DNA of 32,000 bases, taken from Candidatus Saccharimonadota bacterium. GTDB lineage: Bacteria; Patescibacteriota; Gracilibacteria; BD1-5; UBA2023. The translations under genes were made by a program, and so were the position numbers. The notes under the pieces are model-generated. The model was not told the DNA's origin, did not search any database, and worked only from the letters and a program-made list of their open reading frames with translations. The DNA lies in NCBI GenBank assembly GCA_046350815.1, contig JAXLZO010000001.1, positions 750,001 through 782,000 of the forward strand. The letters are read 5' to 3'. Positions 1,887-23,519 of this stretch are shown piece after piece (positions within the stretch are counted from its first letter, which is position 1; every line of letters starts with the position of its first letter).

Positions 1887-2639
1887 GGGTCTAAACCAGT
1901 TACGGGTTATATTGACGAAGTAACTTTAGCACTTCCTTATAAATATCTTTTCATTGAATACGACAATTATATCTGAATTCAGATTCTTTCAAAAAATAGT
2001 AGAAGTAGACTTTCTTGATTCCATTGAATTGAGAGAGTCTTCTTTTGGTATAACTCCAAAATGACTCTATTCAATTAATGTGTTGAGTTCATCTTGCAAA
2101 TTCATTTGCTCCGTGATGAACACGGTAGTGTTTCTCATATCCAATATCTACAAGCCCATCATAAGCTCACCATCCATCACTGTTAATCTCAGACTCTTCT
2201 ATACGAAGTTTTCATCGAATGATTGGCACGAGAGTCCTTGCTTTTACATCAGGAACTATCTCAGTATATACTTTTCAGTTTCTTTTGAGTAAACCAAAGA
2301 CTATTGTCTTCATACCAGCTCACCTTCCTCTCTTTCATCGGACTCTTGTTGGTCAGAAGTAACTCTCATCTATCTCAACATTTCCAGTCCATATTTCATT
2401 CTTTTCTCTCTCACAGAGAAAGGCTATCGCCTTTCTGATATATCTATACCAATCCTGTGTTGTTTTTGGATTGAGACCTGTTAATACCGCTGTTTTATCT
2501 GAAGTAAAATCCAGAGAAAAATATTTCACAATTTCTCTTATTTTTGCATCTCAAATTCGTGATTTTTTCCTATAGGTAGTTTTACTGATCATAGAGCCAA
2601 GTTTATGGGATAATTTATCCTGTCAACTGGTTTAGACCC
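1887..2639 (-). mobile_element. compact IS1595-family (ISXO2-like) insertion sequence
   Basis: Perfect 15-bp terminal inverted repeats GGGTCTAAACCAGTT (1887-1901) and AACTGGTTTAGACCC (2625-2639) enclose a single transposase ORF. A 7-bp direct repeat ATCCTTA (1880-1886 and 2640-2646) flanks the element as a target-site duplication. Confidence 0.85.
1900..2592 (-). CDS. IS1595-family DDE transposase (ISXO2-like domain), 230 aa
   Basis: With TGA=Gly the frame is open from ATG 2592 to TAA 1900-1902. Translation contains VEIDESYFGPTRVRGKRGRGAGMKTIVFGLLKRNGKVYTEIVPDV...IIRGKL...DGWGAYDGLVDIGYEKHYRVHHGANEFARGTQHINGIESFWSYTKRRL, the hallmark ISXO2-like motifs. All 10 in-frame TGA fall on glycines conserved in that family. 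Confidence 0.9.
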
Positions 2640-3989: not shown

Positions 3990-5000
3990 TTACTCCAGTA
4001 ATTGGTTGTATGTCTTGATGATAATTGGGAAAAACTCATCATGCACATAGAGGAGAAGATAATCAAGAAACTTGTCTCTCTCCGTTGGTGTCATTGTTTG
4101 ATTACCCCAACCATTTTTGAGCACATCTTGAAGATTATATTCCCCAACCACTTCTAATCTTCTATCGATAAATTTCTGAAAGAGTCGCAAGAAATCTTGG
4201 TCGATTTCTTCATGTCCTATGCACTCACCATTATGCATTTGGATACATCGAAAGACTTCCTGAAATCTTTCCACCATTTGATTATCTGGTATCCGCACAC
4301 CACTGTTGTCACTTTGGAAGAATTCCTGAATCTCTTTTCATTCATCCAATATAGATTCTTTGATACGATCCGAGTGAATAATGGGAAATCATGCGAGCAT
4401 ACCACTTGGGTCAATATCAACAAATGGGAAAAACTGAGCAAGTCATGGTCAGAGTATTTCTATACTCGAATAGAGTTGGCTTCCCCAATATTTTTCTGCC
4501 GTATCGACGAAATTTGCATAACTGATTGGGTGATATGCACTATCATTCTGATCTTGCAAAGATGGATGAGGTCGATCTGAATGAAACTCCCTCATATCTG
4601 GATCGAGTATTTTGTGTCCAATACGGATTACATTGGTAAATCAAACAATATCTGGACTCTCCCGATCTTGATAGACTACATAATCATGTTCAAAGAGTCA
4701 TCATTTCGCTTGAAACTCACGTATAATTGGATGCTCTTTGAGAATAGTATAGACCCGTCCGCAGATGATATGGCAATAACCTCTCGGATATTGTCTCGGA
4801 TCCATAGTGCTATATTGGGGAAGAGGGGAGTCTTGATATTCATAGCACCCATGAAAGATATCCTCAGAAAAACTCGGATCTATGAGAGTGTGTATCGCTT
4901 CAATCGTTGCCTGAACAAGCTCCTGTTCACCTTTTGGGAGCAGTATATCTTCATAGAGTGTTCGTTGATCAGAAGATATACTTCCATTGAGGGATTTCAT
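3990..5000 (-). CDS. hypothetical protein, 336 aa
   Basis: Track ORFs 4701..5000 and 3990..4298 lie in one frame. Every triplet in between was checked and the only stops are TGA, including a TGA-TGA doublet at 4698-4703 (reads ..AKGGLFEH..). No recognisable domain. Confidence 0.65.
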
Positions 5001-5075
5001 CTTTTATAGGGTCAATTTCTCCAAGCATACCATATTTTTCAGACGATTGCAAAATACAACCACGTTACTCCTTAT

Positions 5076-6158
5076 CTATTTCCCCGATTTCGTCCTATTG
5101 CAATTCTTACAGAGCATCTGACAGTTTTCAGCCGTTGTTTTCCCTCCCTCGTGCCACGGAGTGATATGATCTGCTTCCATCTCTTGGATTGCAAACTGGA
5201 GGCGACACTTCGTACAGATACCTTGCTGCCGCTCATAGGATTCTCTCTTTTGTTTCTCAGTGAATGCGCGGATACTCAGATATTTCTCATTCCGAGTCAG
5301 GACATATTCGTAGATACCGGACTTTTTCGTGACATCTTCATCTTGCATAAGTTTTGTGATTTCTCCCTCGAGTTCTGCTGCATCGTATTCCTGATCTTTG
5401 AACTGATTATAGAGTATTCACCATCCACCACCTTTCATTTCTCTTCGATAGTTTGGGAACACGGCCCGTACCCAATTGATCACACTCTGAAAGTAGAGCC
5501 AGAGCTCATTCGCATTCGGTTTATGCTGATGAGTCGCCATATATTCCTCGATAGTATCATCACTGATCCATGAGAGAGCTGTCTCAAGATATTCTTGGCG
5601 TATGGGAGATCCATTCAGATAGTCACTTCCGATATTATAGGTAGGACATCATGTCTTGCTGAAGTACCGCTTTGCATCCGTGAGCCATGTTCCCGTATAG
5701 ACAGCATTTCGTAGCTCTTGTTCGGTGAGTTTCTCACCTGCAATATTGATCGTCTTGAACCAATCAAGCTTCTCACGATCATTCCCCTCGCAGATATAGA
5801 CCATGAGTTTATAGCTCAGGATCTGTTCTCTCTCCACATCGGTGAGATTGTGAAAATACTGAAAATCAAGAGAGAAATTCCCACTCACATATTCACAGAT
5901 ACTGATCGTTCGCTGCTGTCCATCGAGTACCTCATAGGTTCCATCTTCATTTTTCACCCAATACATTACATTGAGCGGGAAATCCTTACGAACTGTCTCA
6001 ATCACAGAGTTTCTCTGCTTATCTTTATAGACGAACTCTCGCTGGTACTTCGGGCGAATATTGAGTGCTCCACTATACCCGATCACACCATCTTCTTGAT
6101 TGTTGATATATCCGGCTGCAACTTCACGGATCATGATTTCTTGGAGTTTGATTTTCAT
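5076..6158 (-). CDS. fused DUF262 (ParB/GmrSD-N-like, DGQQR motif) - HNH endonuclease, 360 aa
   Basis: Track ORFs 5649..6158 and 5076..5348 are joined in frame through TGA codons, with the intervening triplets checked. The N-terminus has FPLNVMYWV...YEVLDGQQRTISI (DUF262). The C-terminus has CTKCRLQF...ADHITPWHEGGKTTAENCQMLCKNCNRTK (HNH with CxxC pairs). Stop is TAG 5076-5078. Confidence 0.85.
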
Positions 6159-6167
6159 AGGGGAGAG

Positions 6168-7127
6168 TTAAGAATGTAATTTTTTATTTTGGATAATAAT
6201 GCGAAAATATGGACATTTTCCATTAATACTTAAATCTTTCTCATCGTTGCCTTTGCGAAACTTGATAATCTCAAATTGATCTGGATTAAATTTATCAAGA
6301 AAAGTAATTGGAACACCTATGTGACCTGTATAATCTATTGGAATATCTTTTGTTTTATCTACGTTGATTGCATCGTAGTTGTCATACTTTGGATATTCAC
6401 TTTTATTTTCTCTATAAACTTTATAGAGGATTAAATCTTCATGTCGTTCCTTGTAATCGATATTCGTGAACCAACGAACTCATTTTACTCGAATGTATTT
6501 ATTTCACTCCGCATCGACTCTGCTTCAGGCAGCGAGAAGTGGGTAGTGTTCTGGAACTCTGAATTCTCGATCCCCACTATGAATGCTTTTTCAGAACCAA
6601 ACTCGATTTTCCTGAATGAGTTTGAAAAAATCTTTATACGTTATCGCGTTTTGGTTTCCGATGATGATGAATTTTTTCTCATATTCGAAGAGTTGAGCGA
6701 TATATTCACGAAAGAGTGAAAATGGGGGATTGGTGATGACAATATCTGACTCTTTTAGTATCTCGATACATTCAGGACTTCGGAAGTCACCGTTTTGTTT
6801 GAGTGGAGTTTTCACCGTATCGAGCTTGTTGATTTTTCCATCGCCATTGATATCGGCGATAATCTCGAGCTTGTACGATGGTTTGTCATAGTCAAAATGA
6901 GTCGATACGAGCTTTTTAAGTCCGAGAAATTCAAAATTCTCAGAGAGATATCTCCAGAAGTGACTTTCTTCAGGATCATCACAATTGCAGAAGATAACCT
7001 TGTCTTTAAGATGCTCTTTATAGTTTTGTATCTCTTTCTCGATATCAGATATCTGTGTGTAGAACTCATCATTCTTTCCTCTGATAGCATTATGTAAATT
7101 CCTATTTCAGGACTTCTTTTCGGACAT
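6168..7127 (-). CDS. N6-adenine DNA methyltransferase, EcoRI-methylase-like family, 319 aa
   Basis: ATG 7127 to TAA 6168-6170 in one frame with TGA=Gly. Motifs NDEFYTQISDIEKEI, VIFCNCDDPEESHFW, DIVITNPPFSLFREYI (NPPF catalytic motif), KKFIIIGNQNAITYK and GVPITFLDKFNPDQFEII. The stop lies 9 nt before the DUF262-HNH start. Track ORF 6812..7177(-) is an off-frame shadow. Confidence 0.88.
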
Positions 7128-7360
7128 AAAAAATGGCAATTAAATATAATTGCCGAGTTTTTCGGTGTTGTAAGCAAACAAAAACGGGTGATTTTATCGA
7201 CCTATTCTAGTTTGCTTACAACGAGATTTCCGTAGCTTTTATATAAAAGGACGGGCGGTGATAAAATCACCCGACTTGTTTATAAAAACCACAGAAAAAT
7301 TGTGTTTGAAAATCTCGGTTGTAAGCCCGAGCACTATATTGGAAATACGATTGAAGGCAA
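7128..7360 (-). promoter_or_regulatory. putative promoter plus ~200-nt highly structured 5' leader of the methyltransferase/nuclease operon (candidate cis-regulatory RNA)
   Basis: On the minus strand TTGCCT (7355-7360), 16 nt, then TATAGT (7333-7338). Downstream elements: hairpin CTCGG/CCGAG (7314-7332) with loop TTGTAAGC; 13-bp helix 7168-7180:7210-7222; 14-bp helix 7185-7198:7260-7273 interleaved with it; palindrome CTTTTATATAAAAG (7236-7249); and hairpin GGCAATT/AATTGCC (7134-7153) plus a U-run abutting the ATG. Confidence 0.4.
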
Positions 7361-7430
7361 GAAAACTATTTTAGTCAGTATTTGCACTGTTCATCAGTGT
7401 GTGTATCATATGTTTTAATCGTTTTTTACT

Positions 7431-7958
7431 ATGGCTTGAAGAACTAACTGTCTTGAAAGGGCATGACACATAGTTATACTCATCAATTGGATACAATGAC
7501 GCTTGGTTGATTTAATTATTTTTAAAAAACATCCAAGAGCATTGAATCATTTCGTAAAGAATAATAGCTCTCCGACTGTAGGCAAGGAAAGAAGGAGGTA
7601 TTGGAAGAAGAATTTTGCAGACATAATAAAAGAATTTTCTGATCTTTTCCCCAACCTTCCATTGAATTGGTTGCCATTACTTAAAGATTTAAATATAAAA
7701 AGAGATATGATTGCACATTGAAATATATCTCTTTATCGTGATTATATTTTCTATCAACCAGATGATAATCATGCGAAAAAGAAGCTGAGATTAATTCGAA
7801 ATACTATTGATGGAAAAATAACCAAGATGACATGCTTCAAATTATCTTTTGATGATAACAATTATGAAGATATTCTGAGTAGTATTCTTCAGTTTGATGA
7901 AAAGCTATTTCCTCATCTTGCACGAGAAATGGGTTTTGATTATGAACGGATAAGATAG
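7431..7958 (+). CDS. small HEPN-motif protein (putative Abi-like RNase), 175 aa
   Basis: Frame 3 is open from ATG 7431 to TAG 7956-7958 with 4 TGA read as Gly, extending track ORF 7503..7721. It contains LNIKRDMIAHG, an R-x4-H HEPN-type motif. A possible promoter is TTGCAC (7382-7387), 16 nt, TATCAT (7404-7409). The start codon choice is uncertain. Confidence 0.45.
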
Positions 7959-10897: not shown

Positions 10898-12142
10898 CTA
10901 GTGTTTATATGTCCAAGGTACAGAAATCTTTCCTTGTCTCCACTTCCTACATCCATCGAGGGGATCCGAAATATTATTCACCGCAAAATAAAGCTTCACC
11001 CCTCTCCCAAAATTCTCTCGTACTTCCTCAAGTGTAATTCAGAGTTCCTTCATAATCGCTTCATCACTCAAAGTCTCATCAAGGTGCTTCTTCACTCTGA
11101 GAATCGCCCCCATAGGATCTCCTATATTATTCACCGCAAAATGAAGCTTCACCCCTCTCCCAAAATTCTCTCGTACTTCCTCAAGTGTAATTCAGAGTTC
11201 CTTCATAATCGCTTCATCACTCAAGGTCTCATCGAGGTGCTTCTTCACTCTCCGAAGTGCCCCCATAGGATCTGAAATATTCCCAACAGCAAAATGAAGC
11301 TTCATCCTTCTTCCAAAATTCTCTCGTACTTCCTCAAGTGTAATTCAGAGTTCCTTCATAATCGCTTCATCACTCAAAGTCTCATCAAGGTGCTTCTTCA
11401 CTCTCTGAAGCGCCCCCATAGGATCTGAAATATTCCCAACAGCAAAATGAAGCTTCATCCTTCTTCCAAAATTCTCTCGTACTTCCTCAAGTGTAATTCA
11501 GAGTTCCTTCATAATCGCTTCATCACTCAAAGTCTCATCAAGGTGCTTCTTCACTCTCTGAAGCGCCCCCATAGGATCTGAAATATTCCCAACAGTAAAA
11601 TAAAGCTTCACCCTTCTCCCAAAATTCTCTCGTACTTCCTCAAGTGTGATTCCAAGCTCTTGAGCTATCATGGAATCATTTGAGAAGTATTGAGCAATAA
11701 AATCCTCATCCCAGAATTGTGCTATTCTGGAGGTATTTTTCTCATTTTCCATCTTATTTGATCTCATATATAGTCGTATACTCTCATAGTTACAGACAAA
11801 TGCTTCATAGAGAGCCGTAGCATCCTCAGAAGAAAGTTCTGATTTGGTATACTTCTTATATTTTTTACAAAAATCTTGAAAAGCTTCTCTCATTTCACTC
11901 TCTATTTCCTCTTGTTTTCCTTTCATCCAAGAGACACTCTGAAAAGAGTGTTTATGAATAATTCATTGAACATCTGCTTGTATCTTTGGAAGATTTCATC
12001 CATTCGGTTTTCCTTGCTCAGTATTTTCTCTCATACCCTCTCGCATAGCTTCTTGAGAGGTGTGGAGTGCCCTCATTGCTTCTTGTTTTTGATCGAGTAT
12101 ATTTGTCTCTCCTTGGGAGACAGGTGCATTGTTGGCATTCAT
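10898..12142 (-). CDS. tandem-repeat protein with five 51-aa HTH-like modules, 414 aa
   Basis: One frame is open from ATG 12142 to TAG 10898-10900, with all triplets 10898-12190 checked. Track ORF 11498..11926 is the middle piece. The repeat unit is ELGITLEEVRENFGRRxKLxFAVGNISDPMGALQRVKKHLDETLSDEAIMK. Confidence 0.75.
10961..11659. repeat. tandem direct repeat, period 153 bp, about 4.6 copies, coding
   Basis: The landmark AAAATTCTCTCGTACTTCCTCAAGTGT recurs at 11009, 11162, 11315, 11468 and 11621, an exact 153-bp spacing. The copies are near-identical. Confidence 0.9.
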
Positions 12143-12367
12143 AGAATTGCTTTGATATATGTTAGAGTTATTTCTATCACTGTTATGTTAGCATATAAAT
12201 AATATATAGTCAATATTAATAATTCATATTCAATACAAACAATCGATAGTCAATCTCTACTATCCAATATAAATGAATACTACATACTATGTTATATACC
12301 CATACTCCAGGTTCATATCCAAAACACCCTCCTCTCAATAAATCACTCAAACCTATAAAACCATAAA

Positions 12368-12497: not shown

Positions 12498-12571
12498 TGG
12501 CTGGGATACTAGGATTCGAACCTAGGATGCCGGATTCAGAGTCCGGAGCCTTACCGCTTGGCGATATCCCA
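12498..12571 (-). tRNA. tRNA-Gln (anticodon CUG), CCA encoded
   Basis: The reverse complement is TGGGATATCGCCAAGCGGTAAGGCTCCGGACTCTGAATCCGGCATCCTAGGTTCGAATCCTAGTATCCCAGCCA. It has a 7-bp acceptor stem, anticodon stem CCGGA/TCCGG with loop CTCTGAA, and T-arm GGTTCGAATCC. It closely parallels E. coli tRNA-Gln. Confidence 0.95.
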
Positions 12572-12750
12572 AAATAATGCCCGATAGCGAGTGAATTGTA
12601 TACAAAATGAACAAAACGCAAGTGAATTCTTTCTGAATAATTCGACAAGTTTCAATATGGGATTATCATAGCCCCACTTTATTTGAATGATTCTTTTCAA
12701 AGATTTCTTGCAATGAATTTTTTGAGAAAAGATCCTTTCTTCTTGTATCT

Positions 12751-13053
12751 ATGTTTGAACGAATTATTCTGAGTCTCCTCGGTTTTGCAGCAGGGGTTGC
12801 TCTGATGAAATACAGAAAGCAAGTCTATGACTTCACTGGTCCATTTGGATGGGCAGAACGATATATGTGATCTGGTGGTACTGCGACCGCAATCGTACTT
12901 TTTGGGTTTGCGAGCATTGTTCTCTCAATCCTCTATCTTTTTGGATATTTTCAGGTTGGTATGCCAACTGATATGCAAAATCCAAGCACTCCAACTCAGA
13001 ATTCTGTATCGAACCCAATTTCATTCCTTTCATCTCCCTCTCTTTTTATCTAA
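12751..13053 (+). CDS. small two-TM membrane protein, 100 aa
   Basis: ATG 12751 to TAA 13051-13053 with one TGA read as Gly (..AERYMGSGGTATAIVLFGF..). The stop overlaps the start of the next gene (TAATG). Confidence 0.55.
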
Positions 13054-14624
13054 TGCCTTCTTTTTCACGTATCCTTGCGTCAACCGTTTCTATCGTTTTT
13101 GTTACGGTATCTCTATTTACCCCGATTTCTGGTCTTCAAGCAGCTGAGATACGGGCAAAAAGCTTTGAGCAACCAAAAAATATAACAACCCTATATAGCG
13201 CCCGTCATGGAAATATGTCGGTCGAGCAATTCTTGATTGCTTACTATGAGATTCTTGCAGAGAATATCAATCTCCCAAAGAGTTCTGAATTTATCAATCT
13301 TAAAAATAATCAAGCAAAGCCCGATACACCACTCTATCGCGCACTTCAGAAAGGTGTGATGATGGGTATTGTCAAGAATCAAGATACACAATACAGCCTC
13401 AAAGCAAGGATGAAACAAGATCTATTTGCTCGAATGGTTGAGAGGGATCTTGGGAGCAAACTTAATATCACCAAGTGAGCACCGCTTACTTATGGGATGC
13501 TTACTGATACGCTTATAGATATCATCGTTCCAACTGACACGATCGCAAATCATACATCTTCGAATACGGAATGATCTCAAAAAGATGATACACCACTTTT
13601 GACCAAAGTTCGTTCTATTTTAAAGTCAAGTTACTATCATGCTCAAGATGTATCGGATGATAAAAAATTGGAACATGATGCGATTCGTGGTATTGTTGAC
13701 GGATTATGAGATCCATACAGTGATTTTTATGAGTGAGTGCAGAATACAAATCTCAAGACACTGCTCGAGGGAACACTTGTTGGAGTTGGGATGATCATGG
13801 AAAAATGAAATCAATATTATCGCGTCAATCAGGTTATCAAGTGATCACCTGCAGAGCGCGCTGGAGTCATCGCTGGTGATCTCATTAAGAAAGTGGACGA
13901 TGTTGATGTGAATATCAAAGCGTTCACTATGGAAGAGGTAGTTGCGAAAATTCGAGGAGAAGAGAACACTTCCGTTCGTATTGAATTTGATCGTGCTGGA
14001 GTTACTCTCGCAAAAACCATTATCCGAGCAAAAATTGAGGTACCAAATGTGTCATCCAAGGTTGTTAATGACTCATTCGGATATATTGATATTCGGATGT
14101 TTCCTATGGATATTCATACCAATGAGGTCTCATCTGCTCTTGAGCAATTCAAAACAGGAGGAATCAAAAAAATCATCATTGATCTACGTGGAAATCCAGG
14201 AGGAAGCATCGAGAGTTATCGGAGTATTGCATGACTTTTTGTTGTGGAAGATACGATTATCAATCATTTTATAACGAGACAATGAACACAGACGTATACA
14301 TCGAATGGTGATGGTCGATTTGCAAAAACATTTAATAAAATTATCATTCTTGTGGATAAGAATACAGCATCTGCTTCTGAAATGCTCTCACTGACACTTC
14401 GAGAATACTTAGGAGCGATCGTAGTAGGGGAGAAAACCTATGGAAAATGAGTTGCTCAGCAAATCATCGATCTTCCGGATGGTACCACATTTAAATTCAC
14501 TTTTGCAGAGTGGCTCTCTGGAAAAAAATCTACATCTATTAATAAGGTTGGTATCCTCCCTGATATTGTAGTACCAGTTGTGAGTGGTGAGGATAGTATT
14601 CTTAAAAAGGCTCTCGAACAATAA
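13053..14624 (+). CDS. ctp: carboxy-terminal processing protease, peptidase S41 with PDZ domain, 523 aa
   Basis: Track ORFs 13053..13478 and 13893..14234 are joined in one frame, every triplet checked, ending at TAA 14622-14624. Signal peptide present. Motifs DPYSDFY, GVGM, PAERAGVIAGDLI (PDZ), IIDLRGNPGGS, TASASE and GEKTYGK[TGA]VAQ, with the TGA on the conserved Gly of the S41 G-K-G motif. Confidence 0.9.
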
Positions 14625-17242: not shown

Positions 17243-19423
17243 TTATTGAGATGATTTGTTTGTATAGTGGGACCGTAGCTCATTGTCAAAAAGTACATCA
17301 CCAGTATATCAGATTTCTTCATCGCATCGTGGGCAATAGTCATGTTCTCATATAAGATATCCATGTTTTGGGCAGACTGAGAATGTGGGAGTGATGGTTA
17401 TATACGGGAGTTGATACTGGGTAATAACTTTTTTGACGAGCATTTTGCATGCCTGAGCATCAGATATACGTTCACCCATATAGAGATGTAATACAGTACC
17501 GCCTGTATATTTGCACTGCAATTCATTTTGATATTCCAATGCCTCGAAGGCATCATTTGTAAATTCAACTGGAAGTTGTGTGGAATTGGTATAGTAAGGA
17601 TTCTCTCTCGTTCCAGATTGAATAATATCAGGAAGTTGTTTCTGGTCCTCTTTGGCAAATCGATAGGTAGTTCCTTCAGCTGGAGTTGCTTCAAGATTAT
17701 ACATATTCCCTGTTTCTTCTTGGTATTCTTTGAGGATTCATCGCATTTCATCGAGGATTTCAAGAGCGAATCCCTTTCACCAATTGGTGGATATATCCTC
17801 TTTCCCACTTGTGAAATTCAAGATTGCTTCATTCATTCCATTAATACCAATCGTGGAAAAGTGATTGCGAAATGATTTGAGGTATCGATATGTATATGGA
17901 TAGAGTCATGATTTGAGCCACTCCGTGAGTACCTTTCGTTTGATCTCAAGAGAAATCTTTGCAAAATTCATCAGATGTCGAATTTGTTTTTTAAATTCCT
18001 CAGCATTTCCTTTATGGTTGTACCCGATTCTTGCCAGATTGAGAGTAACAACTCCGATTGATCCTGTCATTTCTGCAGATCAGAAAAGTCCATTTCCACG
18101 CTTGAGAAGTTCTCTGAGGTCAAGCTGGAGACGACAACACATCGATCGCACCGCTCATGGTTGATATGCTTCTTGATTTCGTATTCTGGTGATGCTACCG
18201 TCCGATGCTCGTAGCGTCTTGTATTGTGATCCAATGAAATTTTGAAAATAGGGGAGTCCATATTTTGCAGTCATTTCGAAGATCCTATCGACTTCTGGAT
18301 TATCCCAATCAAAATCTTCAGTAATATTGTAGGTTGGTATCGGAAAAGTGAAGGCTCTTCATTTGTAATCCCCTGCGAGATAGACTTCAATAAGAGCTCG
18401 GTTGATAATCATTCGCTCCCAATCGAGTTCTCCATAAGTTCGACAATACTCTCATCGTTCGTACCCACCTAGATGAAGTGCTTTATTTTTAAGGTCTTCA
18501 GGACATGTCCAGTCAAGTGTGATATTGGTGAATGGAGTTTGAGTTCCCCATCGAGATGGGACATTGAGTCCGAAGATAAAATTTTGCATTTGCTGAAGAA
18601 CATATGCATACGTTTTTTCATCGAGGAATTTTTTTTCATCCTCGCTATTTTTAAAATGAAGATGATATGTTCCATTATCGTTGGCAAGTTCTGTTCGATA
18701 TTTATGGACAAAAGGAGCAAGATATGTATCAAATGATGAAAAAGCTTGTGCTCCAGCCCATTCGTTCTGGAGGGTTCCGAGAAAATTGATCATCTGATTG
18801 ATAGCTGCTTGAAGGTTTTTGGGTGGCGCTGACTCTATTCTATTCGGCATACCATTGAATCCTTCCTCTAGGAGTTGTCTCAAGCTCCATCCAGCACAAT
18901 AACCAGAAAACATATCAAGATCATGAATATGATAATCCGCATTTCGGTGAGCATTTCATACCTCCTCAGGATAGATATGTGATAGCCAATAATTTGCAGT
19001 GATTTTTCCAGAAGTATTGAGTATGAGGCCACCAAGTGAATATCCAGAGTTTGCGTTTGCATTTACTCGCCAGTCGGATTTTTCAAGGTATTCCTCCATT
19101 GTTTTTCCAACTTCTACAACCACGTTTTTGGAGGATCGAGCTTCCGACCGATTTTTACGATAAATGATGAATGCTTTAGCAAGAGTATCATGTCCATTTT
19201 TGATGAGTATTTCTTCTATCGTATCTTGAATCACTTCAATATCGGGAATTTGCATATTGCACGATTGCTCCATATGCTTGATGACTTGATCGGTCAAAGA
19301 AGTGACATGAGAAAAATCATCCCCTCCAACTGATTGGATCGTTTGCATAATTGCATGTTCGATTTTGGTTCGATCAAATGTCTCGATCGAACCATTCCTT
19401 TTACGCACTTTATAGATAGCCAT
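17243..19423 (-). CDS. nrdD: anaerobic (class III) ribonucleoside-triphosphate reductase, large body with ATP-cone, 726 aa up to the in-frame TAA
   Basis: Track ORFs 18956..19423, 18452..18913 and 17348..17704 share one frame. All triplets 17705-18451 were translated and contain only TGA. Motifs FTFPIPTYNITEDFDWD, RSMCCRLQLDLRELLKRGNGLF[TGA]SAEMTGSIGVVTLN and TPTFSVCPKHGYLIGEHDYCPRC. The frame meets TAA at 17243-17245. Confidence 0.85.
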
Positions 19424-19663
19424 ATTGTCTCAAAAGATCACAAAATAAAAACAGACATAAGTATGAATTTTTCATTCAGCTTCGCCTGTTTTTACTGTTT
19501 ATTGCATTAATAAAAACAGAGTTGAAATCGAATGAAAAATTCGAAAACATTTGTATACCCTGTTTTTAAGAATTGCTATCTTCTTAAAAAACGATTGATG
19601 ATGTATATGACATGTGCTGGCTTGAATTACACGCAATTCAAAGCATGATTTCCACTCGTCATA

Positions 19664-20788: not shown

Positions 20789-21151
20789 ATGGTTATTCGA
20801 CAGATGCTTAAATCGGCAGCCAGCAAGCTGCTCAGGACGGACAATGATAGTGAAGAGAGCGAAGACATCGTCACTCATTGTGCGTGGTGTGGTAAGGAGA
20901 TTCATGAGGGTGATCGCATTACCCTCTTCACGGATCAGGCCATGTCACCGCGATTGCCCATGGCCAATACAGTTTTGTGGCGACGAATAACACCATATAG
21001 TGCTATCTACGTGGGGTGTACTCGTCCATCGTGCTGTGAAAGCAGCACGGATGCATGTGCTACATGGACACATCAGCAAGTCATGGTTGATGTATATCGA
21101 GGAGAATCTTCATGCCACACCATGACGTCTGCAAGTGCTCGCAAGGAATAG
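20789..21151 (+). CDS. Cys-rich hypothetical protein, 120 aa (GC-richer, SD-led)
   Basis: GAAGGGGG lies 8 nt upstream of ATG 20789. No in-frame TGA; stop TAG 21149-21151. A hand-counted 100-nt sample is 49% G+C. A CxxC (HCAWCGKE) is followed by further Cys residues. A terminator follows. Confidence 0.55.
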   Translation: MVIRQMLKSAASKLLRTDNDSEESEDIVTHCAWCGKEIHEGDRITLFTDQAMSPRLPMANTVLWRRITPYSAIYVGCTRPSCCESSTDACATWTHQQVMVDVYRGESSCHTMTSASARKE

Positions 21152-21173
21152 ACTATCTTGTGCGAGCAAAATC

Positions 21174-21197
21174 AAACCCCTCCTTGGAGGGGTTTTT
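21174..21197 (+). terminator. rho-independent terminator
   Basis: AAACCCCTCC TT GGAGGGGTTT followed by TTCTT. Confidence 0.7.
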
Positions 21198-21290
21198 CTT
21201 AGAAATACTTCGATATTTCTTATCTCATCTATATATTCTTTTTGCCCAACTGAAAAAATTTCTATAATACGTCCATCTTTTTCTTTTTTC

Positions 21291-23519
21291 ATGATTGCAC
21301 ATATTACTGACCGACAAAGTCCGACTCTACAGGAGATCAAACATTCTTTTTCTATTGATCGAAGGGAATGGACATTTTCCAGTGGTCGATTGGCTCGACT
21401 CTCCCCAGGATCGGCAACAATTTCTGATAACCAAGGGAATGTGCTGCTTACAACTGCTGGTATTGGGAATGCTCGTGAAGGTATAGATTTTTTCCCGCTT
21501 TCAGTGGATTTTGTAGAGAAATATTATGCTTCAGGAAAAATTGGTGGCAATCGATTTCAGCGCAGAGAGGGGAGGCCGAGTGAACAGGCTATTCTTACTT
21601 CTCGTCTGATAGATCGTCCGATTCGCCCACTTTTTCCAGATGGTACAACGAGCGAGGTGCAGATTATCTCGACGATTCTCTCAGCAGCGAGTGCTGGTGA
21701 TTTTGGATTCGCAGGTATCACAGGGGCATCGCTCGCCATTCTCCTCTCCAAGACTCAGGGATTTGAATGACCGGTTGCTGGAGTGCGACTTGCTCTCAAG
21801 AGCGAAGATGGATCATTCCTCTTTGACCCATCATTTGAAGAGCTCGCACAATCACCGCTGGATCTGACTCTCGCGGGAACACTTGACGCTATCATGATGG
21901 TGGAATCAGAAGCAAAAGAAGTATCGAGTGAGATGATGATGCGAGCATTCGAATATGGACATGAGCTTATCAAGCAAATATGCCGTGAGCAGATTGCTTT
22001 CGTAGAACTCTACAATAAGCAGTATGAAGTCCATGAAATAACTCTCGACCGTCATGCTCTTTGTGATGATCTTCTAAGGGAAGCATCAGAATTTCTCTCA
22101 CAAGAGTGAAGAATGGATCGTCTCTATGATATAGGGAAGAAGGATTTTGAAAGTGTCTATGATGATCTTGTTGATGATTTTATACGCGAATACCGAGAGC
22201 AGCACCTTTCTACAGGGACTGATGATCTGCAGAAAGATACGGAAGAGACGCCAGGTGACAAAGATCTCAAAAAAGCTATCCATCATGCTATCAAGTGACT
22301 CATGAGATCGAGAGTTGTTACTCAGAAGAGAAGACTGGATGGCCGACGTCCAGATGAAGTTCGTCCTATTCTCACAGAAACTGGGTACCTACCACGAACT
22401 CATGGTTCAGCAATTTTTGAACGCGGTCTTACACAGATTCTCTCGGTTGCAACGCTTGGTGGGCCGAGCGATGCTATGACCATCGATGATATGTTCGAAG
22501 AAGAAGAGAAACGATATATTCATCACTACAACTTTCCTCCGTATGCAACAGGTGAGACCAAGCCACTTCGTGGTACTGGGCGACGAGAGGTAGGACATGG
22601 CCGTCTCGCAGAGAAGGCTCTGCTCGCCGTACTTCCGAGCGAAGAAGAATTTCCATACATTATTCGTGTCGTCTCTGAGACACTTACCTGTAATGGTTCT
22701 TCAAGTATGGGATCCGTTTGTGGGTCTTCTCTTGCTCTCATGGATGCTGGGGTGCCGATCAAGGCAAGTGTTGCAGGTATTGCTATGGGAATGATCTATG
22801 ATGAGACCACTCTTCAATATACGATTCTCTCAGATATCCAGGCTCAAGAGGATTTCCTCGGAGATATGGATTTCAAGGTTGCGGCAACCAAAAATGGTAT
22901 CACAGCACTTCAGATGGATTGTAAAATTGCTGGTCTCACAACAGCAATGGTACGTGAAGTTTTTCATCAGGCAGAGGAGAGTCTGAAGGTGATCCATGCT
23001 GGCATGGATGCTTCGATTACTATGCCTCGTTCAACACTTTCTTCTCATGCTCCTCTCCTCAAGTGCCTCCAAGTTCCAGAGGATAAAATGCGCGATGTGA
23101 TTGGGCGCGGGGGAGAGATGATTCAGGGTATTGAGAAGAATTTTGAAGTGGAGGTGAATCTTGAAGATAATGGATTCTGTACCATTACATCGCGTTCACA
23201 AGAAAATGGTCAAAAGGCGTATGAATTTATTCTCTCTCTTATTAAGGAAGTTGAGATCGGCGATATTTTTCATGCACCGATTATCAAGATTCTTGATACA
23301 GTAGGTGCGATCGTCGAACTTACTAAATGAAAAGAAGGAATGGTGCATATATCGAAATTCGGTATCAAGGAACGAGTTGCAAATGTGAACGATATTGCAA
23401 AAGTTGGTGATATTCTTGAAGTTCGAGTCTATGGTATCGACAAGGAGAAAGGAAGAATCCAACTCGAGAAGGTCATCAAAGAAGAAGAAAAGAAAGCAGA
23501 AGTAAATATTATTCTCTAA
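21291..23519 (+). CDS. pnp: polyribonucleotide nucleotidyltransferase (PNPase), 742 aa
   Basis: Track ORFs 21135..21770, 21783..22109, 22113..22298 and 22302..23330 plus the S1 tail are one frame broken only by 4 TGA. Examples: GFE[TGA]PVAGVRLAL; RLDGRRPDEVRPI; FPPYATGE..RREVGHGRLAEKAL; GSSSMGSVCGSSLALMDAGVP; DFLGDMDFKVA. KH and S1 domains lie at the C-terminus. Stop is TAA 23517-23519. Confidence 0.93.

What the first reader, a model, noticed from the sequence alone, without database searches (positions are those of the whole stretch)
7128..7332. About 200-nt leader with interleaved perfect 13-14 bp helices (pseudoknot topology) upstream of the methyltransferase-nuclease operon
Seen: GTTGTAAGCAAAC (7168-7180) is perfectly complementary to GTTTGCTTACAAC (7210-7222). 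CGGGTGATTTTATC (7185-7198), which lies inside that hairpin's loop, is perfectly complementary to GATAAAATCACCCG (7260-7273). The order is a-b-a'-b', that is, mutually interleaved. A third hairpin, CTCGG-TTGTAAGC-CCGAG (7314-7332), displays in its loop the same 8-mer as the first helix arm, so it can compete for GCTTACAA (7214-7221). A 14-bp palindrome CTTTTATATAAAAG (7236-7249) and a terminator-like hairpin GGCAATT/AATTGCC plus a T-run (7128-7153) abutting the methyltransferase ATG complete the region. A minus-strand promoter-like TTGCCT-16-TATAGT (7333-7360) would transcribe all of it as the 5' leader. Inference: a cis-regulatory RNA with alternative pairings (attenuator or riboswitch-like), or a small ncRNA, that gates expression of a restriction-modification-type module. 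I recognise no known riboswitch or RNA family here.
Basis: partly seen in the sequence, partly recalled or inferred. Interest (0 to 1): 0.65.

Follow-up and report, generated by a model that had tools for sequence, protein, structure and literature searches.

The report
Structured RNA leader of restriction-modification operon
The roughly 200 bases in front of a restriction-modification gene pair encode a conserved, previously uncatalogued folded RNA whose strands can pair in mutually exclusive ways and which ends in a terminator-like hairpin touching the start codon, so it looks like an RNA-only control device for a potentially self-toxic gene pair.

Summary
The helices are real, apart from two off-by-one coordinates. 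They belong to a conserved RNA, read on the minus strand. It runs from a sigma-70-like promoter (7333-7360) to the ATG (7127) of an EcoRI-family methyltransferase followed by a GmrSD_N/HNH nuclease (a Type II R-M pair).

The same architecture occurs in 11 distinct loci, in seven sequence families, all of Gracilibacteria/Peribacteria type. One of these loci was held out of model building. The sequences differ but the pairings are kept. Every helix shows compensatory changes, and G·U pairs occur almost only on the methyltransferase-sense strand, so the structure is RNA rather than DNA.

The 5'-terminal strand pairs with the central strand (P1, 12-16 bp). It also pairs with the stretch overlapping the base of the terminator-like hairpin (P0). 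In all six families tested, predicted folding of the growing transcript goes P1, then the hairpin a:a', then P0.

Best reading: a cis-acting leader or attenuator that works by programmed refolding. The structure is shown; the regulation is inferred. There is no Rfam match, no conserved ligand-binding core and no leader peptide. Very close orthologous gene pairs carry a helix-turn-helix controller gene or a different structured leader in the same position. The role of the 14-bp long-range helix and the input signal, if any, remain unknown.

The parts
7333..7360 (-). sigma-70-like promoter: TTGCCT (7360-7355), 16-nt spacer, TATAGT (7338-7333). The transcript should start about 7326-7332.
   Evidence: Called by the pattern scan. 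A TTGC(C/T/A)(T/A)-N15-18 -10-like hexamer lies at the same distance from the first helix strand in all 11 loci. Homology between modules starts at 7339.
7314..7326 (-). a'' : the 5'-terminal strand GCUUACAACCGAG. It is the 5' strand of the long-range helix P1, and it has the same sequence as strand a'. In this lineage it can also be held in the small hairpin 7314-7331.
   Evidence: The duplex with 7214-7225 is 12 bp, -15.8 kcal/mol. The helix is 12-16 bp in every family, with 13 of 16 positions compensatory. RNAalifold picks it on a structure-blind alignment. 8 of 9 pairs change on both sides, and 0 of 500 shuffles reach this.
7308..7318 (-). P0 5' strand (CCGAGAUUUUC). It pairs with 7153-7163.
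   Evidence: Duplex of -12.6 kcal/mol, z = -2.5. An equivalent pairing of the 5' segment with the stretch overlapping the terminator base occurs in all 10 leaders and in the held-out L253.
7232..7292 (-). Px stem (5' arm 7281-7292, 3' arm 7232-7245) capped by the local hairpin Hb (b 7260-7273 with b'' 7252-7261).
   Evidence: Px is 12 bp including 2 G.U on the sense strand (-10.5 kcal/mol sense against -2.9 antisense). All 12 positions are compensatory across families. It is part of the MFE in every family.
7260..7273 (-). b: CGGGUGAUUUUAUC. It pairs either locally (Hb) or with b' at 7185-7198.
   Evidence: 14 bp perfect here and 14-16 bp in all families. There are 10 G.U pairs on the sense strand against 1 on the antisense strand. 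Cognate duplexes average -21.4 kcal/mol against -10.0 for non-cognate.
7210..7225 (-). a : the central strand CUCGUUGUAAGCAAAC. Nucleotides 1-12 pair with a'' (P1) and nucleotides 4-16 pair with a' (the hairpin), so the two pairings exclude each other.
   Evidence: The growing-transcript MFE switches from P1 to a:a' once a' is made.
7185..7198 (-). b' : GAUAAAAUCACCCG, in the loop of the a:a' hairpin. It is followed by an invariant U-tract (7180-7184).
   Evidence: The U-tract and the preceding CCC are invariant alignment columns.
7167..7179 (-). a' : GUUUGCUUACAAC, the 3' strand of the a:a' hairpin (13 bp).
   Evidence: Perfect Watson-Crick pairing in all 11 loci (7-13 bp). 9 of 11 pairs are compensatory on the model-guided alignment, and 0 of 500 shuffles reach this.
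7153..7163 (-). P0 3' strand (GAAAAACUCGG). Its last two G are the first two bases of the terminator-like stem.
7128..7154 (-). T : hairpin GGCAAUU-AUAUUUA-AAUUGCC (7154-7135), then A + U6 (7134-7128), directly followed by the AUG.
   Evidence: Called terminator-like. Hairpin + U6-7 + AUG has the same spacing in all 11 loci. 5 of 8 stem pairs are compensatory.
6168..7127 (-). EcoRI-family adenine methyltransferase, 319 aa, read with UGA as a sense codon (5 in-frame UGA).
   Evidence: Pfam PF13651, E = 3e-128. PADLOC MTase_II, full length. Codon table.
5076..6158 (-). GmrSD_N (DUF262) + HNH nuclease, 360 aa, starting 9 nt after the methyltransferase stop codon.
   Evidence: Pfam PF03235 + PF01844. 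PADLOC REase_II, full length, E = 5e-142. The conserved module ends at its stop codon.

Best explanation
The region encodes the 5' leader RNA (about 200 nt) of a two-gene Type II restriction-modification operon, transcribed on the minus strand from the promoter at 7333-7360. The leader is a set of competing helices. The 5'-terminal strand a'' first pairs with the central strand a, forming P1, which closes a domain holding the Px/Hb hairpin. When the copy strand a' is transcribed, it takes a away from a'' to form the more stable local hairpin a:a'. The four a nucleotides (AAAC) that P1 leaves unpaired would serve as a toehold. The freed 5' segment then pairs with the stretch that overlaps the bottom 2-4 nt of the last hairpin T (pairing P0). 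T plus U6 sits directly against the AUG. I infer that the outcome of this refolding race sets how much polymerase reads through into the methyltransferase and nuclease genes. If P1 persists, T forms fully and transcription stops. If a:a' and P0 form in time, the base of T is withheld and transcription continues. The paired or free state of the 5' end may also affect how long the mRNA lasts. In effect this is an RNA-only counterpart of the controller proteins used by other R-M systems. Shown: the helices, their strand, their mutual exclusivity and their conservation. Inferred: transcription start and stop, the effect on expression, and any input signal. The function of the long-range helix b:b' is not explained.
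For: Gene context: the MTase and REase are identified, and the promoter and terminator-like site are called. Conservation: the same order of elements occurs in 11 distinct loci, always directly 5' of the orthologous MTase ATG and in the same orientation. Homology between modules runs exactly from the -10 box to the nuclease stop codon. Covariation: cognate arms pair far better than arms taken from other families (a'':a -18.6 vs -6.4; a:a' -13.0 vs -5.0; b:b' -21.4 vs -10.0; Px -7.4 vs -0.7; T -8.7 vs -3.7 kcal/mol). Positions with compensatory changes: 13/16, 9/13, 12/16, 12/12 and 8/9. On a structure-blind MAFFT alignment, 0 of 500 shuffles reach the observed covariation, and slid controls collapse. 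The same holds on the model-guided alignment, and RNAalifold independently returns a'':a. Strand: G.U pairs number 10 sense vs 1 antisense in b:b' and 8 vs 3 in Px, and sense energies are always equal or better. The held-out L253 repeats this pattern in all five helices. Alternative pairing: a'' and a' share the same partner. Forcing a'':a costs 2-10 kcal/mol relative to the MFE, which always contains a:a'. The MFE of growing transcripts goes P1 -> a:a' -> P0 in all six families, except that in the window's own leader P0 enters the MFE only together with T. P0 is present in all leaders, engages 2-4 nt of T, and has z = -2.5 to -4.6. Regulatory role: orthologous M-R pairs with MTases 77% identical to the window's carry an HTH gene (L164) or a different structured leader that buries the AUG (L165/L167/L170) in the same place. 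The element is therefore an exchangeable control module, not a cofactor of the enzymes.
Against: There are no transcript data, so the start site, the 3' end at U6 and readthrough are all inferred. P0 overlaps T by only 2-4 nt. In three of six families the predicted equilibrium still has a full T, and a first search for a classical antiterminator found nothing. No sensor is identified: there is no leader peptide and no conserved unpaired core. The b:b' helix has the best evidence for RNA pairing, yet it has no role in the model and never appears in nested MFE structures. The sample is small (seven sequence families, one clade). The folding series is equilibrium thermodynamics, not kinetics, and the pseudoknot energies are rough sums.
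Confidence: 0.58

Rival explanations
1. It is a free-standing small RNA of about 195 nt that ends at T. It acts in trans or binds a protein, for example by titrating or inhibiting the nuclease in the manner of a type III antitoxin, or by feeding back on newly made leaders. The two genes would be expressed only by leak-through of its terminator.
For: A promoter, a highly structured RNA, a canonical-looking hairpin + U6 and then the genes form the same layout as ToxIN-type loci (own knowledge). T has no strong competitor. Because one of the identical strands a'' and a' is always unpaired, a 9-13 nt single strand is always on display.
Against: Very close orthologous enzyme pairs do without this RNA and carry an HTH gene or another leader instead, so the enzymes do not need it. 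There are no tandem direct repeats. No other match to a or a' with fewer than 2 mismatches exists in the window, and none of the weaker matches lies in the operon, so there is no target there. The spacing of T-U6-AUG is fixed in all loci, which an independent gene would not require.
Confidence: 0.17
2. It is a static, non-switching structure that only protects the 5' end, sets mRNA half-life and damps translation start by placing a hairpin next to the AUG.
For: The predicted ground state is a compact fold in which the 5' end is paired (P0) and T abuts the AUG. Other lineages of the same methyltransferase also have a hairpin at or over the AUG. Genes in this genome mostly lack Shine-Dalgarno sequences.
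Against: A static fold gives no reason to conserve, by covariation, two partners for strand a (a'' and a'), two for a'' (a and the pre-T stretch) and two for b (b'' and b') in seven families.
Confidence: 0.15
3. It is a metabolite-sensing riboswitch (for example for SAM or SAH, the methyltransferase cofactor and product). P1 would close the aptamer and a:a' would be the expression platform.
For: A P1 helix whose 3' strand is shared with a downstream hairpin is the classical riboswitch layout (own knowledge), and the downstream gene uses SAM.
Against: There is no Rfam hit, even at E <= 10, other than noise. The domain inside P1 is one long hairpin plus U-rich linkers whose length and sequence vary. 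Invariant positions are confined to helix ends and U-tracts.
Confidence: 0.06
4. The repeats act as DNA: as operator or recombinase sites, or as leftovers of a mobile element.
For: Inverted repeats near a promoter of an R-M system are typical controller-protein operators (review PMC12707154). The a:a' and T arms contain no strand-informative G.U pairs.
Against: The G.U/A.C asymmetry favours the sense-strand RNA in b:b', Px, a'':a and P0. The arms are interleaved and 30-60 bp apart. No DNA-binding regulator is in the module. No extra copies occur in the window, in 252 loci or in the plasmid and phage collections.
Confidence: 0.03

Closest known systems
Intrinsic-terminator attenuators and riboswitch expression platforms (helix switching between a P1 stem, an alternative hairpin and a terminator)
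   Same: It lies in the 5' leader on the gene's strand. One strand is shared between two mutually exclusive helices. It has a hairpin + U-tract before the ORF. The folding order is set by the order of transcription.
   Different: No ligand pocket, leader peptide, tRNA-binding or known protein-binding element was found. The competitor of the terminator overlaps only its bottom 2-4 nt. The U-tract runs straight into the AUG. There is an additional 14-16 bp long-range helix (b:b') with no counterpart.
Controller (C) proteins and other HTH regulators of Type II R-M operons
   Same: It occupies the same position (immediately upstream of the operon). It is exchangeable with the leader between near-identical M-R modules (L164, L084 and L085 against the window). 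The presumed task is the same: limiting or timing expression of a self-toxic pair.
   Different: Those are proteins that bind DNA operators. Here there is no regulator gene at all, only RNA structure.
hok/sok-type killer mRNAs (sequential refolding with a 5' metastable hairpin and alternative long-range pairings)
   Same: The 5'-terminal sequence has successive alternative partners. There is a transient structure during synthesis and a compact closed final fold. Both are associated with an addiction-type module.
   Different: No antisense RNA gene and no 3' processing signal were found. It controls an operon leader rather than a toxin reading frame. This resemblance rests on my own knowledge and was not tested.
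Type III toxin-antitoxin loci (ToxIN): promoter, structured RNA, terminator, toxin gene
   Same: The linear layout is the same, as is the idea that a terminator sets the ratio of RNA to protein genes.
   Different: There are no tandem repeats, no processing endoribonuclease, and the RNA is dispensable in orthologous modules.
Aca1/Aca2-bound RNA motifs in acr operon 5' UTRs (PMC13551039)
   Same: Both are structured 5' UTR motifs that start right after the transcription start of a defence-related operon and were found by covariation.
   Different: Those are single hairpins bound by a co-encoded HTH protein. No such protein is encoded here.
Rfam 23S-methyl motif (RF01065)
   Same: It is a leader of a methyltransferase gene with hairpins and a terminator, and it gave a weak hit at 7168-7298.
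   Different: It scores 16.8 bits against a gathering score of 50, with E = 9.5, so the window is not a member.

Membership tests
Terminator-based transcription attenuator | It lies between the promoter and the first gene, on the same strand. | tested here: met
   The promoter is at 7360..7333 and the ATG at 7127 on the minus strand. The arrangement is the same in 11 loci.
Terminator-based transcription attenuator | An intrinsic terminator (G+C-containing hairpin followed by a U-tract) lies upstream of the ORF. | tested here: met
   The pattern scan calls it. Hairpin + U6-7 is conserved with compensatory changes. Actual termination was not measured.
Terminator-based transcription attenuator | An alternative helix excludes the terminator. 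| tested here: inconclusive
   P0 engages 2-4 nt of the stem base in all leaders. However, a full T coexists with a shortened P0 in predicted equilibria of three families, and no larger overlap was found.
Terminator-based transcription attenuator | A defined sensor (leader peptide, tRNA, protein or ligand). | tested here: not met
   There is no conserved ORF, and three leaders have no ATG at all. There is no conserved unpaired core. Protein binding is not testable here.
Metabolite riboswitch | A conserved aptamer core, or membership of a curated class. | tested here: not met
   Rfam 15 gives no hit at gathering score in the window or in 18 related loci, and only noise at E <= 10. Invariant columns are restricted to helix ends and U-runs.
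H-type pseudoknot | The two interleaved helices are both selected at the RNA level. | tested here: met
   Both a:a' and b:b' covary. b:b' has sense-only G.U pairs.
H-type pseudoknot | The two helices form at the same time. | not testable with these tools
   Rough sums put a:a' + b:b' within a few kcal/mol of the nested MFE before any pseudoknot penalty. b:b' competes with Hb and Px. Structure probing is needed.
C-protein operator / DNA-level inverted repeat | Symmetry at the DNA level (no strand preference) and a cognate DNA-binding protein. | tested here: not met
   G.U pairs are 10 vs 1 and 8 vs 3 in favour of the sense strand, and the same pattern holds in L253. The module has no HTH gene.
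Type III toxin-antitoxin RNA | Tandem direct repeats of the antitoxin RNA upstream of the terminator. | tested here: not met
   No tandem or long direct repeats occur in 7000-7700.
MITE / repeated mobile element remnant | Multiple dispersed copies, independent of a given gene. | tested here: not met
   The covariance model finds it only directly 5' of the MTase ATG, in 1.5 Mb of related loci and the window. There is no blastn match in the plasmid or phage collections.

The most novel reading that the evidence does not exclude
A Type II restriction-modification operon is controlled with no protein regulator, by a self-timing RNA. The leader first folds into P1, possibly locked by the b:b' pseudoknot, and terminates. 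It lets polymerase through only after a programmed strand exchange (a' displacing a'', then the 5' end capturing the base of the terminator). This refolding, or feedback by the accumulated terminated leader or by the enzymes themselves on it, would supply the delay and homeostasis that controller proteins supply elsewhere.
Probability: 0.3. Interest if true: 0.75.

Novelty: new variant of a known kind. Interest (0 to 1): 0.62.

Why it matters
Known control of restriction-modification genes relies on controller proteins, methyltransferase autorepression, promoter methylation and antisense RNAs. A 2025 review of the field mentions neither riboswitches nor attenuators. A conserved multi-state leader RNA that replaces the controller gene in near-identical modules would add an RNA-only mode of control for a self-toxic, horizontally mobile gene pair. 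It occurs in candidate-phyla-radiation bacteria, where almost no regulatory RNAs are described. It is also a compact natural example of programmed strand exchange: three copies of one strand plus a second toggle. It could be tested directly in vitro, and it provides a new covariance model for annotating these genomes.

Tried and rejected
1. Known RNA families. Rfam at gathering score on the whole window, at E <= 10 on 6900-7800, and at gathering score on 18 related loci returned only tRNAs and noise. ARAGORN found one tRNA-Gln far away.

I reached it through the homology search instead.

3. The metagenome scan and the viral scan with the methyltransferase alignment gave 160 loci but no new leader of this type. 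The genome scan gave five.

4. Classical antiterminator. The best upstream partners of either arm of T were inconsistent and no better than shuffles. P0 emerged only when the stretch just 5' of T was included.

5. The helix CCGAG-UUUUC: GAAAA-CUCGG, taken as a general feature, is significant only in the window's lineage and L006. It turned out to be that lineage's version of P0.

6. Pairing of the 5' end (UCGGGC) with the start-codon region (GUCCGA) is seen in the window's MFE. It is present in six leaders (weaker in L006), always with the same sequence, is absent in four, and shows no covariation. I treat it as lineage-specific.

7. Leader peptide: none conserved.

8. Internal promoter for the methyltransferase between a' and the ATG: none called.

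9. DNA-level and mobile-element readings were rejected on the G.U asymmetry and the copy number.

10. The 14-bp palindrome as an operator: it is simply the 3' arm of Px in this lineage and is absent elsewhere.

Full report
**Naming.** I describe the RNA 5' to 3' on the minus strand, the strand of the operon.

**What the window is.** Long reading frames appear only when UGA is read as a sense codon, so this is a code-25/4 organism. Its closest relatives among the fetched loci are labelled Candidatus Gracilibacteria. The finding lies directly upstream of two minus-strand genes:
- An EcoRI-family adenine methyltransferase (6168-7127; PF13651, E = 3e-128).
- A GmrSD_N + HNH nuclease (5076-6158), starting 9 nt after the methyltransferase stop.

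PADLOC's REBASE-derived models match both proteins over their full length as a Type II MTase and a Type II REase.

**Checking the observation.**
- Two coordinates are off by one: the a' arm is 7167-7179, and the small hairpin ends at 7331.
- The pattern scan calls the minus-strand promoter TTGCCT-16-TATAGT (7360..7333) and the hairpin + U-tract at 7154..7135.
- The sense strand folds with z = -8.9 against dinucleotide shuffles, compared with z = -5.7 for the antisense strand.
- Neither long arm recurs in the window.
- No Rfam family matches.

**Related loci.** The methyltransferase has thousands of homologues. I fetched 253 loci in total, by exact look-up of the closest homologues and by scans of the genome, metagenome and viral collections.
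- Eleven distinct loci carry the same leader architecture directly 5' of the orthologous ATG: the window, L002, L003, L006, L007, L011, L017, L078, L168 (= L169), L172 and L253.
- These 11 fall into seven sequence families.
- The labelled ones are Gracilibacteria, Peribacteria and 'Altimarinus'.
- Nucleotide homology between modules runs from the -10 box (7339) to the nuclease stop (about 5076) and no further. The leader therefore travels with the two genes.

**Architecture.** The order along the transcript is:
1. Promoter.
2. a'', at or within 6 nt of the predicted 5' end.
3. A U-rich linker.
4. The 5' arm of stem Px.
5. b, with a local partner b'' (hairpin Hb).
6. The 3' arm of Px.
7. a.
8. 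A 5-11 nt spacer.
9. b'.
10. An invariant U-tract.
11. a'.
12. A 12-27 nt linker.
13. Hairpin T.
14. U6-7.
15. AUG.

Strands a'' and a' have the same sequence, and both are complementary to a.

**Covariation.** The helix sequences differ between families but complementarity is kept.
- Cognate arms pair far better than arms swapped between families. This holds for a'':a, a:a', b:b', Px and T, but not for the generic G-rich Hb.
- Counting base pairs in order from an anchor, positions with double-sided changes are 13/16 (a'':a), 9/13 (a:a'), 12/16 (b:b'), 12/12 (Px) and 8/9 (T).
- On a MAFFT alignment made without reference to structure, a'':a, b:b', T and a:a' exceed all 500 column shuffles in covariation score and percent paired. 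They collapse when the partner is slid by 1-3 columns.
- RNAalifold on that alignment returns a'':a on its own.
- A covariance model built only from the 3' half (a:a' and T) finds nothing else in 1.5 Mb of loci plus the window.
- That model did find one leader that was not in its training set, L253 (50 bits).
- L253 has all five pairings with new sequences, including the three that the model does not encode.

**RNA or DNA, and which strand.** G·U pairs are tolerated only in RNA, and they become A·C mismatches on the opposite strand.
- b:b' has 10 G·U pairs on the methyltransferase-sense strand and 1 on the antisense strand. Px has 8 against 3.
- Sense duplex energies are always equal to or better than antisense.
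- L253 adds sense-only G·U pairs in a'':a, b:b', P0 and T.
- This, the fixed orientation, and the absence of any DNA-binding gene in the module argue against operators, recombination sites or a decayed mobile element.

**Alternative pairings.**
- Strand a pairs through nucleotides 1-12 with a'' (P1) and through nucleotides 4-16 with a'. The two helices exclude each other.
- Strand b pairs either locally (Hb, within Px) or with b', which sits in the loop of a:a'.
- A further conserved pairing, P0, joins the 5' segment to the stretch immediately 5' of T and includes the first 2-4 nt of T's stem. In the window's lineage and L006 the 5' strand of P0 is the CCGAG-UUUUC flank of a''. In the other families it is a'' itself.
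- P0 is present in all leaders, at -10 to -16 kcal/mol and z = -2.5 to -4.6.
- The nested MFE of every full leader contains a:a'. Forcing P1 costs 2-10 kcal/mol.
- Folding transcripts of increasing length gives essentially the same series in all six families tested. P1 is present as soon as a is made. It is replaced by a:a' when a' is made. The 5' segment then takes the pre-T stretch (P0), although in the window's own leader P0 enters the MFE only together with T. T then forms, in full in three families and shortened to 6 bp in three.

**Mechanism proposed.** The conserved features fit a leader whose output depends on a strand-exchange race. If P1 persists until T is transcribed, T forms down to its G-C base next to the U-tract, which is the configuration expected to terminate. 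If a' has displaced a'' and P0 has formed, the base of T is withheld. The paired or free state of the 5' end may also affect stability. The steps I infer rather than show are that transcription starts and stops where predicted, that the overlap with T matters, and that something biases the race.

I found no sensor:
- There is no conserved leader ORF.
- There is no conserved unpaired core.
- There is no larger antiterminator.

The b:b' helix is strongly supported as RNA, yet it is energetically equivalent to Px + Hb and never appears in nested predictions. Whether it locks P1 as a pseudoknot, forms with a:a', or acts as a pause or terminator-like stem before its invariant U-tract is unresolved.

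**Why a regulatory role is likely.** Orthologous pairs whose methyltransferase is 77% identical to the window's have one of two alternatives at the same place:
- A small XRE-type HTH gene, in L164. The MTase homologs in L084 and L085 (69-73% identical; downstream gene not examined) have one as well.
- A different structured leader whose last hairpin buries the AUG, in L165, L167 and L170.

Bacteroidales relatives have yet another leader with a hairpin abutting the AUG. The enzymes therefore do not need this RNA. It is one of several interchangeable control modules. A 2025 review lists controller proteins, methyltransferase autorepression, promoter methylation, antisense RNAs and hairpins at start sites as the known R-M controls, and does not mention riboswitches or attenuators.

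**Comparison with known systems.**
- It works most like a terminator-based attenuator or a riboswitch expression platform. It fails the sensor criterion of those classes, and its antiterminator overlap is minimal.
- It resembles hok-type sequential mRNA refolding, and it shares the linear layout of type III toxin-antitoxin loci. It lacks their defining antisense RNA and tandem repeats.
- It is not a member of any Rfam family. The 23S-methyl hit is noise at 16.8 bits against a threshold of 50.
- It has no similarity in the plasmid or phage collections.

**Verdict.** The region is a real, conserved, sense-strand RNA structure with programmed alternative pairings in front of a Type II R-M operon, and it is not previously catalogued. 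That it attenuates or gates expression is the best-supported reading (about 0.6) but is untested. The 'pseudoknot' and 'riboswitch-like' labels are not established.

Noticed in passing
window, whole (e.g. 12672-14624 +, 17243-19498 -, 20991-23519 +): Long ORFs exist only if UGA is read as a sense codon, so this is a genetic code 25/4 organism with 39.5% G+C. The methyltransferase itself has five in-frame UGA codons, one of them at codon 7.
   Followed up: partly
L165:2997-3175, L167:1758-1935, L170 and L171: There is a second, different structured leader ('type B') in front of near-identical M-R pairs. A 16-bp helix formed by the 5' end closes a three-way junction. A last hairpin contains the AUG in its 3' arm, with an upstream GUGCC that could compete for it. 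There is no Rfam match.
   Followed up: partly
L158:230-371, L042:3860-4000, L016, L022, L067, L097, L105, L133, L137, L156: Bacteroidales relatives of the methyltransferase share a third leader. It has a terminator-like AGAAAGG...CCUUUCU-UUUU hairpin followed by a GAUUGAUAG...CUAUCAAUC hairpin ending 1-3 nt before the AUG. There is no Rfam match in the loci scanned.
   Followed up: no
L164:4779-4994; upstream of the MTase in L084 and L085: A 71-aa XRE/HTH_3 gene sits immediately before the methyltransferase homolog (a controller-protein-like arrangement), in the place that the RNA leader occupies in the window.
   Followed up: partly
L001 (= window 4493-7148, 100% identical): A public assembly contig of the same sequence stops inside the loop of the terminator-like hairpin, 21 nt upstream of the ATG. 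This could be low coverage, or strain heterogeneity at the leader. It is not resolved.
   Followed up: no
window 10962-11652 (ORF 10898-12187, minus strand): There are 4.5 tandem copies of a 153-nt unit, 94% identical, encoding a repeated 51-aa segment (…LSDEAIMKELGITLEEVRENFGRR.KLHFAVGNISDPMGAL.RVKKHLDET…) in a protein with no family assigned.
   Followed up: no
window 1900-2631 (minus strand): An IS1595-family (ISXO2-like DDE) transposase gene lies about 2.4 kb beyond the end of the R-M module. Between them are CHAP-domain and DUF4256 genes and a 336-aa protein with no Pfam match.
   Followed up: no
L011:774-1091, L017:1270-1989, L168:158-228, L042:766-839; window 12498-12571: tRNA genes lie 2-3 kb upstream of the R-M module in several loci, and a tRNA-Gln(CTG) lies 5 kb away in the window. 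This is compatible with island-like insertion next to tRNA genes.
   Followed up: no
L076:3770-3997: A Clostridia-labelled relative has a reduced version of the leader. A 16-bp helix joins the 5' end to a downstream strand, followed by a small hairpin, a U-tract, a strong terminator-like hairpin + U5, and then a Shine-Dalgarno sequence and the AUG 20 nt further on. This hints that the last hairpin acts in transcription rather than in translation start.
   Followed up: partly
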